Shown in pieces: positions 3,600-24,470 of a DNA stretch of 57,535 bases; position 1 is the stretch's first letter; the number at the start of each line of letters is the position of its first letter. Position numbers and translations under genes: made by a program. Source of the DNA: a virus. Lineage: Duplodnaviria; Heunggongvirae; Uroviricota; Caudoviricetes; Ackermannviridae. Where the stretch lies: the IMG/VR virus record IMGVR_UViG_2974546594_000001, positions 1-57,535 of that record; one strand, written 5' to 3'. The notes below the pieces were generated by a model. It did not search any database and was not told where the DNA came from. It saw nothing but the letters and a program-made list of their open reading frames with translations.

Positions 3600-4038
3600 T
3601 TGTTTCACCTTTTGCTGCATACGACAGAGCTTTTACGATCATAACAGCCAAACCGATAGGATCGTATGCATTGTCGAATTCTTGTTCTATGTTCTGACGA
3701 ATTTCATCAGAAGATTGTACTTCAGAGCAGTTCTTACTCTGTCTGCGTTGCTCTTGCTCGACTAGATCTTTGAACAGAAGGTCTTTGAAAGAATACTCAT
3801 CGAAGTTTTCAAGATACCGTTGGATGCTTGGTTGTTTTACATCCATCGTTTGACGCAAATTGCTAATAGTTGAACTTGCCTGTTCGCGGTGTTTGTTCAT
3901 AACAGCAAAGTTAACGGGCTTGCCCCAAGCATTCATCACTGGATTAGAGCATACTTGGCCAAAGAGATCTTGGAAGGCATCATCCATGTGGATCAACGCA
4001 GTGGCCAATTCTTCATAAGTTGGTTTTTGAGTAGTCAT
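3592..4038 (-). CDS. Hypothetical protein (148 aa)
   Basis: ORF tightly overlapping neighbours in the operon. Confidence 0.7.
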   Translation of the reverse strand: MTTQKPTYEELATALIHMDDAFQDLFGQVCSNPVMNAWGKPVNFAVMNKHREQASSTISNLRQTMDVKQPSIQRYLENFDEYSFKDLLFKDLVEQEQRRQSKNCSEVQSSDEIRQNIEQEFDNAYDPIGLAVMIVKALSYAAKGETNV

Positions 4039-4406
4039 TTTCGTTTACTCCGATTTTTATATTTCTTAGCCTGACGTTTATGTTGGGCGGCTCCATATAG
4101 GCGCGGCGGCTTTTGATAACGTTGTGACGCAATTATGTCCCTGTCATCGGCTTCTGCTTCACAATACGAAATATCTGCCTTCCGTAACTGAGCCACCGCT
4201 TGAGATACCAATGTTTTGCGTTCACTTTCTACCAGATCATCACAAATTATCATGCGTTCACCTGGTTCACAACGACGTTTAGGAATATCGTCTACACTGA
4301 TACATTCTACTTCAACACCTTTCAACTTTTCTTGAAGGATAATGGCCATAGTCCGAGCGCCGATTCCTCCTCCAATAATCGCTATCTTTCTTGGCTTGTC
4401 TGTCAT
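4035..4406 (-). CDS. Hypothetical protein with N-terminal GxGxxG motif
   Basis: IAIIGGGIGARTMA; start moved to MTDK (4406) because the track start lies inside the promoter hairpin. Confidence 0.65.
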   Translation of the reverse strand: MTDKPRKIAIIGGGIGARTMAIILQEKLKGVEVECISVDDIPKRRCEPGERMIICDDLVESERKTLVSQAVAQLRKADISYCEAEADDRDIIASQRYQKPPRLYGAAQHKRQAKKYKNRSKRK

Positions 4407-21206: not shown

Positions 21207-21235
21207 AAAAAGAAACCCGATCATCCTGATCGGGC
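21207..21235 (-). terminator. Terminator closing the tRNA/ncRNA transcription unit
   Basis: GCCCGATCA-GGA-TGATCGGGT-TTCTTTTT. Confidence 0.8.
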
Positions 21236-21294
21236 TATGTTAAACCATCGTGGGGATGGAAAGACTACTCACAGCAATTTCTGATAATGGGCGT

Positions 21295-21549: not shown

Positions 21550-21638
21550 TGGCGGAAGGTGAAGGATTCGAACCTTCGGGGGCTAAAAGCCCCACTCGAT
21601 TAGCAGTCGAGTCCCTTAAACCTCTCGGGCAACCTTCC
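21550..21638 (-). tRNA. tRNA-Ser(GCT)
   Basis: Canonical cloverleaf, CTCGA-CT-GCT-AA-TCGAG, long variable arm, GCCA end. Confidence 0.97.
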
Positions 21639-21639
21639 G

Positions 21640-22067
21640 TATACTGCGCCTCGGTCAAGAATTTTCCAAGCCATGACCTAAATCTGGGTTCTTGACCTGA
21701 CCGAGCGTATTATGGACGGGCTTCACACCCGATTGTGCATTTGATCTGCCGTAGCCCAACTCCCCGCGCTTATCAGCGCCGATTGGTTAACTGACACCAG
21801 TGCCTTCTGGTTCGATCTCCTGGAACTTTACAGGCTTCGCGCCCGACCATTTCTGGAAGTTGGGGCATCGTTTCCGATGTGGAGTCACCCCATTTTATAC
21901 ACAGCTGGCTGCAACGCTTACTGTGTTTGGTCTACCACCACGTGCTGGGCCACGCTTGAGGACATCGGCCATCCTTCCTCAGCTAATCCACGCGGTGGTA
22001 GATTTTGTATCAGAGTGTCCGGTGTAGCTTTCCGTGAGGTGCGCACTACTGTAGCCTCTACACTCTG
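21640..22067 (-). ncRNA. Large structured ncRNA domain (~430 nt)
   Basis: Stems TCTACCACC/GGTGGTAGA, CAGAGTGT/ACACTCTG, CCCAACTTCC/GGGAGTTGGG, GGTCAAGAA/TTCTTGACC, GNRA loops; bounded by a CCA end and tRNA-Ser. Confidence 0.65.
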
Positions 22068-22071
22068 AATT

Positions 22072-22180
22072 TGGTGGGCGTTACTTTCGTCGGGTTCAGA
22101 TTCCGTTCGGCTATTAGACGTCGCTCGAGAGAACTTGTCGTTCGCGTACTTCGTGCTTACTTGCTTTCGTTTCACACCCA
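22072..22180 (-). ncRNA. CCA-ended RNA C (~109 nt)
   Basis: TGGGTGT/ACGCCCA then CCA; GAA/AGTA loop-E-like motif next to the terminal stem. Confidence 0.5.
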
Positions 22181-22189
22181 TTGTTTGTC

Positions 22190-22316
22190 GTCGGGCGGGG
22201 GATTCAAACCCCAATCTTTAGTTTGTGTTTCTTCAAAGCTATCATATGTTCACTTTGAATACTAGACTCCCCTGGACATCAAAACAGAATCTCTATTCCA
22301 TCCTGCAAGACCCGAC
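22190..22316 (-). ncRNA. tRNA-like RNA D (~127 nt)
   Basis: GTCGGGT/GCCCGAC acceptor, GGGG-TTTGAAT-CCCC T-like arm, TTCAAAG/CTTTGAA internal stem; no encoded CCA. Confidence 0.55.
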
Positions 22317-23290: not shown

Positions 23291-23317
23291 AACAACTACC
23301 CACAGCAATATGAATTT

Positions 23318-23526
23318 GTTGTGTCCAATCAAGGACTGTCAACCTTTTATCCCGTTTGTGCATGATCAGTTCATGCATGCCTCTTGTGCGCCTCACGGCA
23401 ACGCGCTTCTGTAGGTCATCGACTTGCACTGTAGTCTCACCACAGGCGTTTATTTTTCCAGGGCTTTCCACTTACAAGTCTTAACCAGATCGGGATACGG
23501 GCTTGTAAGATCGGATTGGACACAAC
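23318..23526 (-). ncRNA. ~210-nt structured RNA domain with kink-turn and possible pseudoknot
   Basis: 13-bp closing stem GTTGTGTCCAATC/GATTGGACACAAC; K-turn 23409-23445; TATCCCG/CGGGATA. Confidence 0.65.
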
Positions 23527-24160
23527 TTTGATGGCTCTAGGACTAAAGATCCCGCGTCACCCATAGACTTGGTTTATAAAATCTAGAGCCATCAAAGTTG
23601 CAACCAATGTCGCAACTCGCACTTCAGCGTCTTCGTCTCGCTTCAGCACTTGTCCTCTACGTTCGGACCAAACGAGGCTGGCCGACAGAAACATAACACC
23701 ACTCATCACTAGAGCGAGGATGTGGTTGATAGCCACGATGTTACGTCTCTGTCGTAGAGTGATCACACTTGTCAGGATGATCACTGTTTTGCGAACTTGA
23801 AAATACTGCGCCTGTCTCGGGTTTCCCCTTAGTTCGGCCTCTCATTGTTCGTCTAGTCAGGGAGCTACCCTTGATGACCAGCTTATTTTGAGATCTTCGC
23901 CAGCACCCACTAGTGTCTAGAATATGTAGGTGTCGAGGTCTGCAAGGCATTGCCCTATTTCATACAACGCTCTCTCAAGTACGCAAATCGAAGTTCTCTG
24001 GGCTTAACAGGTTCGACCCAACATGTTGTATATCGCCTAACTTACTCATGGGACGGCCACTTCTGTGTACAGACCTTGAGGGTTAAAAGATATACCCAGA
24101 GAACTTCGATTTGCGTTGCCCTTCACTTGCCAGAGATCAGGGCAATTGGTAAGACTTCGC
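23523..24160 (-). ncRNA. Structured non-coding region with very long stems
   Basis: Perfect 18-bp (23523-40/23583-600) and 22-bp (23981-24002/24095-116) inverted repeats; 16-bp stem with G-U pairs (ACAGAGACGTAACATC/GGTGTTATGTTTCTGT). Confidence 0.6.
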
Positions 24161-24161
24161 T

Positions 24162-24250
24162 CACATCTTAGAGGACACTGCACGGGACTCGAACCCGCCA
24201 CGAACATTTGGCGCCAAATGCTTCCACCTGTCAATGTCCTCTAAGATGTG
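24162..24250 (-). ncRNA. tRNA-like RNA E with a 16-bp acceptor-type stem
   Basis: CACATCTTAGAGGACA/TGTCCTCTAAGATGTG, T-arm GCGGG-TTCGAGT-CCCGT, CATTTG-GCGC-CAAATG instead of an anticodon arm. Confidence 0.65.
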
Positions 24251-24374
24251 GAGCCGTTTTAGGGAGTCGAACCCAAATGCTTGGCCAGCGCTGACCTTAC
24301 ATCCCATCTGACTTAGGCAACCCACCTCTGCTTACTCAGGAGCTTATCCCCTTTGGACAGTCAGATATAACGGC
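24249..24374 (-). ncRNA. tRNA-like RNA F (~126 nt)
   Basis: GCCGTT/AACGGC-T-CCA, GGG-TTCGACT-CCC, TCTGACT/AGTCAGA core stem. Confidence 0.6.
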
Positions 24375-24376
24375 AA

Positions 24377-24470
24377 TGGGATTGGAGGAAGGACTCGAAC
24401 CTTCTCATGTACGCTCCTGATTTCTCAGAAGTAGTCTGCTCCCATCGACCTATTAAGTACACGCTCCGCT
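24377..24470 (-). ncRNA. tRNA-like RNA G (~94 nt), weak acceptor stem
   Basis: GAAGG-TTCGAGT-CCTTC, ends CCCA, GTGTAC/GTACAT core stem; 5' boundary approximate. Confidence 0.5.

What the first reader, a model, noticed from the sequence alone, without database searches (positions are those of the whole stretch)
21640..22067. ~430-nt ornate RNA released by flanking processing sites
Seen: nested long stems (14-bp TCTACCACCGCGTG/CACGTGGTGGTAGA with one G-U), GNRA-capped hairpins (CATCG-GAAA-CGATG), and a 10-bp long-range pairing CCCAACTTCC/GGGAGTTGGG that overlaps the TGGGG/CCCCA helix (pseudoknot or switch). Its ends are set by the CCA of RNA C and the 5' end of tRNA-Ser. Inference: a new large structured RNA of the GOLLD/ROOL kind.
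Basis: partly seen in the sequence, partly recalled or inferred. Interest (0 to 1): 0.72.

Follow-up and report, generated by a model that had tools for sequence, protein, structure and literature searches.

The report
Row of small phage RNAs
The supposed 430-base giant RNA in this Salmonella-type phage is really four small, separately inherited folded RNA units lined up among tRNA genes; three are conserved, uncatalogued RNAs of unknown job, and one of them looks built to pair with a copy of itself.

Summary
The hairpins are real, on the minus strand of a Kuttervirus tRNA cluster, but they are not one GOLLD/ROOL-like RNA. Relatives split the 428 nt into cassettes that are reordered, lost singly, or separated by tRNA-Tyr. 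None of 32 Ackermannviridae loci has the window's order.
A (58 nt): three-way junction, also in T5-like, N4-like and a lambdoid-type phage. Its loop hexamer changes but stays palindromic in all 42 copies, which points to kissing-loop dimers.
B (75 nt, ends in CCA): fully covarying stem around an invariant core; three phage families.
E: a deletion chimera.
There is no Rfam, GOLLD, ROOL, T4 rnaC/D or T5 stable-RNA match. Best reading: separate stable RNAs cut from the tRNA polycistron by host enzymes, like T4 RNA C/D, probably accessory decoys; expression and function are untested. The scan found this chain before on other phages.

The parts
22072..22180 (-). Its CCA precedes cassette A. Not homologous to T4 rnaC.
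22010..22067 (-). Cassette A, 58 nt. Three-way junction: P1 22067-22060/22018-22011, P2 22058-22055/22039-22036, P3 22034-22032/22022-22020. Putative loop-loop pair GTAG 22049-22046 with CTAC 22027-22024 (invariant, so untested by covariation).
22040..22045 (-). Palindromic loop hexamer of A (TGCGCA here; GTGCAC or TGCGCGCA in relatives); candidate intermolecular kissing site.
   Evidence: helix 5: 3 of 3 pairs change on both sides, 100% paired; 42 of 42 copies palindromic
21928..22002 (-). Cassette B, 75 nt. 14-bp closing stem plus CCA around a conserved core (21988-21945) with a bulged 8-bp helix and a putative pseudoknot GGCCG 21970-21966 with TGGCC 21952-21948.
21713..21926 (-). Cassette CD, 214 nt. 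5' hairpin; helix TGGGG/CCCCA carrying a GAAA hairpin; three-way junction; hexaloop hairpin; long variable hairpin; 3' T-loop hairpin 21731-21717 followed by TCCA.
21817..21884 (-). Pseudoknot of CD: CTCC 21884-21881 with GGAG 21820-21817 (CCCT/AGGG in three relatives).
   Evidence: helix 3: 2 of 4 pairs change on both sides, 100% paired
21755..21864 (-). Complementary in the window, but not supported as a conserved helix.
21640..21709 (-). Cassette E', a hybrid hairpin. A 142-nt deletion between two TCGGTCA repeats (junction 21704-21698) fused the 5' end of a 138-nt tRNA-like cassette F to the Kuttervirus hairpin E.
21550..21638 (-). tRNA-Ser(GCU), downstream neighbour.
21214..21236 (-). Intrinsic-terminator-like hairpin closing the array.
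   Evidence: consensus match only

Best explanation
The stretch is a row of independent small-RNA cassettes in the tRNA cluster of a Kuttervirus (Ackermannviridae). SHOWN: the cassettes assort separately; A, B and CD have helices kept by compensatory changes; A and B are shared with unrelated enterobacterial phage families; E' is a deletion product. INFERRED, from my own knowledge of T4 tRNA-cluster processing: they are transcribed with the tRNAs on one minus-strand precursor, cut at the short A/U-rich linkers and tRNA-like 5' ends by host RNase E and RNase P, and trimmed to CCA or to the closing stem. This gives separate stable RNAs of about 58, 75, 214 and 70 nt. The closing stem and CCA look like a processing and stability handle, because B's stem changes completely and the CCA is absent where B lies outside a tRNA row. 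The invariant cores are the working parts. A probably forms homodimers through its palindromic loop (about 60%). The most likely role (about 35%) is accessory decoy or ligand for a host RNA-binding or anti-phage protein: the units are dispensable, structure-selected, and swapped between phages that share hosts.
For: Order table: 0 of 32 Ackermannviridae loci keep A-B-CD-E contiguous, and insertions fall at cassette borders. Internal CCA ends: 21 of 26 CD copies in the full tally end in TCCA and the rest in TCCT. Covariation: A, 9 of 22 pairs; B, 17 of 25 pairs across three families; CD, 9 of 51 pairs including the pseudoknot; all far above the slid controls. Range: A in Demerecviridae, Schitoviridae and a lambdoid-type contig; B in Schitoviridae and Chaseviridae; CD in phage EP_H11. 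Precedent: T4 rnaC/rnaD and T5 RNAI, III, IV, 1, 2, 3, 2H and X are annotated as stable RNAs of unknown function between tRNAs (PMC9697503).
Against: A ends without CCA, so A and B could stay joined as a 140-nt RNA in this phage. The shuffle control ignores relatedness. The CD pseudoknot rests on 3 sequences, perhaps one or two events. The palindrome has only three variants. The decoy role has no direct evidence.
Confidence: 0.8

Rival explanations
1. One ~430-nt ornate RNA of the GOLLD/ROOL kind, with a long-range switch helix.
For: The minus strand folds at z -3.45. It lies in a tRNA island, as GOLLD and ROOL often do (PMC12286853). A-B-CD are adjacent in many Kutterviruses.
Against: Split by tRNA-Tyr, reordered or partly absent in relatives. 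Internal CCA ends. About 2% of predicted pairs cross cassettes. The 3' part is a deletion chimera. No GOLLD or ROOL match. The long-range helix is unsupported.
Confidence: 0.04
2. The cassettes are separate genes, but some assemble with each other or with themselves into an RNA-only complex, a modular counterpart of OLE/ROOL assemblies.
For: The palindromic loop of A covaries at adjacent nucleotides, the test used for intermolecular bridges in OLE and GOLLD (PMC12286853). B has a GGCC palindrome in its loop. CD has GNRA-type loops and a T-loop.
Against: A, B and CD each occur without the others, so no obligate mixed complex exists. I saw no covarying complement between cassettes.
Confidence: 0.2
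3. B (or A) is a small self-cleaving ribozyme or metabolite aptamer that helps process or regulate the array, as theta ribozymes do beside phage tRNAs (own knowledge).
For: B has 18 invariant core nucleotides across three families, while its helices covary freely. It has a pseudoknot-capable topology.
Against: No Rfam ribozyme or riboswitch model matches at E up to 10 or 5. By eye the strand order does not fit twister, pistol, HDV-like or hammerhead folds. No constant downstream gene. The units already have tRNA-type ends.
Confidence: 0.12
4. The units are mere spacers, processing aids or decaying remnants of tRNA-like genes.
For: CD is internally deleted in SKML-39, Dickeya phages, Maynard/Marshall and Vi01. 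B's core is collapsed in locus L020. E is confined to Kutterviruses.
Against: Compensatory changes and invariant cores across unrelated families show selection on shape and sequence. This reading fits E' only.
Confidence: 0.1

Closest known systems
Phage T4 stable RNAs rnaC (species 1, 139 nt) and rnaD (species 2, 119 nt)
   Same: Non-tRNA structured RNAs lying head to tail with tRNA genes; function unknown.
   Different: No sequence similarity beyond T-loop words. The cassettes here are more numerous, shuffled, and shared between phage families. Stability has been shown for T4, not here.
Phage T5 stable RNAs RNAI, III, IV, RNA1, 2, 3, 2H and X
   Same: Same setting and size range. Cassette A lies in T5-like genomes near RNA2 homologues.
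   Different: None of the annotated T5 RNAs matches A, B, CD or E, and the T5 tRNA region fetched (L015) lacks A.
GOLLD (RF02032), ROOL (RF03087) and OLE RNAs
   Same: Phage or prophage RNAs near tRNA islands (GOLLD, ROOL). Covarying palindromic loops mark intermolecular kissing in OLE and GOLLD (PMC12286853).
   Different: They are single RNAs of about 570 to over 800 nt with conserved long-range architecture. Here there are separate 58-214-nt units and no model match.
HIV-1 dimerisation initiation site (own knowledge; a structural comparison only)
   Same: Hairpin loop with a 6-nt palindrome; one natural form is GUGCAC, also seen in cassette A of many relatives.
   Different: No homology. 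A is a free-standing three-way junction RNA of a bacterial virus, and its dimerisation is untested.

Membership tests
GOLLD (RF02032) | Match to the Rfam covariance model | tested here: not met
   No match at gathering or at E up to 10 in the window or the whole genome
ROOL (RF03087) | Match to the Rfam covariance model | tested here: not met
   In one search no control genome rang either, so that call alone is weak.
GOLLD/ROOL-type ornate RNA | One continuous large RNA inherited as a unit, with conserved long-range helices | tested here: not met
GOLLD/ROOL-type ornate RNA | Located near phage tRNA islands | tested here: met
GOLLD/ROOL/OLE-type assemblies | Covarying palindromic loop indicating an intermolecular bridge | tested here: met
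   Cassette A only; three variants
GOLLD/ROOL/OLE-type assemblies | RNA-only homo-oligomer shown physically | not testable with these tools
   Needs mass photometry or cryo-EM
T4/T5-type tRNA-cluster stable RNAs (descriptive class) | Non-coding structured unit abutting tRNA genes on the same strand, with tRNA-type ends | tested here: met
   CCA ends on B and CD
T4/T5-type tRNA-cluster stable RNAs (descriptive class) | Accumulates as a discrete stable RNA during infection | not testable with these tools
T4 rnaC/rnaD or named T5 RNAs (as homologues) | Sequence homology | tested here: not met
Known self-cleaving ribozymes, riboswitches, RNase P, SRP, Y-like RNAs | Match to an Rfam model | tested here: not met
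   No hit over 21640-22067 at E up to 10; no such family over the distant homologues

The most novel reading that the evidence does not exclude
Phage tRNA arrays carry a swappable toolkit of small functional RNAs. A would be a minimal 58-nt self-dimerising RNA, B a 44-nt aptamer- or enzyme-like core, and CD a 214-nt pseudoknotted RNA. They would move between unrelated phage families and act as RNA-only counter-defence or host-control agents.
Probability: 0.25. Interest if true: 0.72.

Novelty: new member of a known kind. Interest (0 to 1): 0.42.

Why it matters
The function of the stable non-tRNA RNAs in T4 and T5 tRNA clusters has been open for decades. The region was already noted as an unexplained gene-free 2 kb in CBA120 (PMC3184105). 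These cassettes give defined, covariation-backed structures, natural deletion variants for comparison, and one sharp in vitro prediction (A dimerises through its palindrome), in culturable phages used for biocontrol. It is not a new giant RNA.

Tried and rejected
Single 430-nt RNA: rejected. Plus-strand RNA: weaker fold and opposite to the tRNAs. Protein coding: the 98-codon ORF 21918-22214 crosses cassette borders where relatives have 1-nt indels and insertions. Homology to T4 or T5 named RNAs: none. Rfam: none. Twister, pistol, hammerhead, HDV-like, RNase P and SRP resemblances were considered by eye and dropped; the A of B's CUGAGGA is base-paired and covaries. Wider searches gave few new homologues: loose viral patterns mostly chance hits; the metagenome scan gave one more Ackermannviridae contig; GTDB genomes, plasmids and E. 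coli genomes gave none. Literature searches found no description of these motifs. Supplements of the 10,006-candidate viral RNA catalogue (PMC10690425) are not held, so overlap with it is untested. MAFFT misaligns EP_H11 by one base in two CD hairpins, which understates covariation.

Full report
Setting. The window is part of a 161.5-kb virus record. Its nearest named relatives are Kutterviruses (Ackermannviridae) such as CBA120 and S8, at about 97% identity over this region. The stretch lies in a tRNA and non-coding island read on the minus strand, between an upstream CCA (22074-22072) and tRNA-Ser at 21638-21550. A terminator-like hairpin sits at 21236-21214. The CBA120 paper noted an unusual gene-free 2-kb region beside the tRNAs (PMC3184105).

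Observation. The quoted stems are all present. The minus strand folds better than all 100 shuffles (z -3.45); the plus strand is weaker (z -1.77). The 14-bp stem is beyond chance (0 of 100 shuffles). A 10-bp complement is not (24 of 100). The stems lie side by side rather than nested: 2.5 of 128.6 expected pairs cross the borders defined below.

It is not one RNA. BLAST against 50,697 phage records gives 397 hits, and all 60 best hits, which span the full length, come in two or three pieces. Mapping units over the fetched loci resolves four cassettes: A 22067-22010, B 22002-21928, CD 21926-21713 and E' 21709-21640. tRNA-Tyr is inserted between B and CD in ECML-4, Phi_10 and others. B is moved ahead of A in Klebsiella and Serratia phages. 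ZQ1 has CD without A or B; EP75 has A and B without CD; Vi01 keeps only CD's first hairpin. B and CD end in their own CCA followed by an A/U-rich linker. E' arose by a 142-nt deletion between two TCGGTCA repeats that removed a 138-nt tRNA-like cassette present in S8, LPEK22 and Phi_10; ECML-4 has the same junction. E occurs only in Kutterviruses.

Cassette A. A three-way junction found in Ackermannviridae, T5-like and N4-like phages, where it usually follows the CCA end of a tRNA or tRNA-like unit. It also occurs in a lambdoid-type contig, in the non-coding gap before the terminase genes (L022; model score 38 bits, E 6e-9). Nine of 22 pairs show double changes, 96% of cells pair, and slid controls reach at most 53%. 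The large loop holds a hexamer that reads TGCGCA (21 copies), GTGCAC (20) or TGCGCGCA (1); all 42 are palindromes. The two central, adjacent bases change together, which cannot be an intramolecular pair. Kretsch et al. used this signature for intermolecular bridges in OLE and GOLLD (PMC12286853). The neighbouring segment is near-palindromic too, and becomes perfect in Vi01. With three variants only, I put homodimerisation at about 60%. The GTAG/CTAC loop-loop pair is invariant and so unproven.

Cassette B. A 14-bp or longer closing stem around a core of about 44 nt, found in Ackermannviridae, N4-like Gamaleyavirus and Chaseviridae. All 14 stem pairs and 3 of the 6 inner-helix pairs counted show double changes, while 18 core positions are invariant. 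A GGCCG/TGGCC pseudoknot is possible but does not covary, and it has a mismatch in Dickeya phages. Outside tRNA rows the CCA is missing and B lies close to a tmRNA-like tag frame. This suggests the CCA is a processing handle and the core is the active part.

Cassette CD. 214 nt, in 204 records at 80% coverage or more, plus a distant copy in phage EP_H11. Supported helices: TGGGG/CCCCA (also TGAGG/CCTCA and TGTGG/CCACA), the GAAA hairpin, a pentaloop hairpin, the 3' T-loop hairpin (C-G to U-A), and a pseudoknot CTCC/GGAG that becomes CCCT/AGGG in three sequences. The junction-closing AACT/AGTT helix and two small hairpins are invariant. One position mismatches in 7 of 17 sequences, half its pairs fail in EP_H11, and SKML-39 deletes its 5' strand but keeps the 3' strand. 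A transient switch cannot be excluded but has no support. CD is internally deleted in several lineages, so it is dispensable. This unit is the closest thing here to an 'ornate' RNA.

Mechanism. Shown: modularity, selection on structure, spread across families, dispensability. Inferred from my own knowledge of T4 tRNA processing: one polycistronic precursor, cut by host RNase E and RNase P and trimmed to CCA, yields separate stable RNAs. B's 13-bp stem plus ACCA resembles the minihelix substrates of RNase P. Function is a guess: decoy or ligand for a host RNA-binding or defence protein (about 35%), self-assembly (20%), ribozyme or aptamer (12%), spacer or relic (10%, best for E'). No expression data could be obtained.

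Comparison. No Rfam family matches. GOLLD and ROOL models find nothing in the genome. T4 rnaC/D and the eight annotated T5 stable RNAs are not homologous, but they are the right class: stable RNAs of unknown function among phage tRNAs (PMC9697503). I found no paper describing these motifs. Overlap with the Fremin 2023 catalogue could not be tested. Earlier notes of this scan reached the same 'chain of modules' reading on related phages; I consulted them after my own tests and do not count them as support.

Verdict. New members of a known, still unexplained kind. Interest 0.42.

Noticed in passing
window 24601-24569 (minus), within about 24700-24516: tmRNA-like tag frame reading ANDNTFLAVA-stop; weak Rfam permuted-tmRNA hit (E 0.36). 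Similar frames occur in N4-like and Chaseviridae phages, where cassette B lies close by.
   Followed up: partly
window 21546-21458 (minus): tRNA-shaped gene with an enlarged non-decoding anticodon arm; a 91.5% identical copy sits just upstream of CD in the unrelated phage EP_H11 (L051 1034-1118).
   Followed up: partly
L001 4360-4497: 138-nt tRNA-like cassette F (acceptor-like ends, T-arm, CCA) present in many relatives and deleted in the window.
   Followed up: partly
L020, just after cassette A (about 4027-4070): Cassette B has lost its core and collapsed to a perfect inverted repeat of the closing stem; a natural loss-of-core variant.
   Followed up: no
L051 280-2120 (phage EP_H11): About 1.8 kb of unannotated non-coding island with tRNAs and several further structured units; the phage is unclassified.
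   Followed up: no
L003 3890-3997; L010 1730-1920; L005 1561-1644; L053 1235-1565: Further cassettes absent from the window (a 108-nt unit, a 190-nt unit with a T-arm, an Ile-like tRNA variant, extra tRNA-like units in Vi01) occupy the same slots, so the array is an open cassette system.
   Followed up: partly
L022 5400-5870: In this lambdoid-type contig, cassette A sits in a promoter-to-terminator non-coding block before the terminase genes, with no tRNA and with other possible hairpin units.
   Followed up: no
window 23300-24450 (minus): More long inverted repeats and T-arm-ended units upstream; the whole 21.2-25.5-kb island looks like the same kind of array.
   Followed up: no
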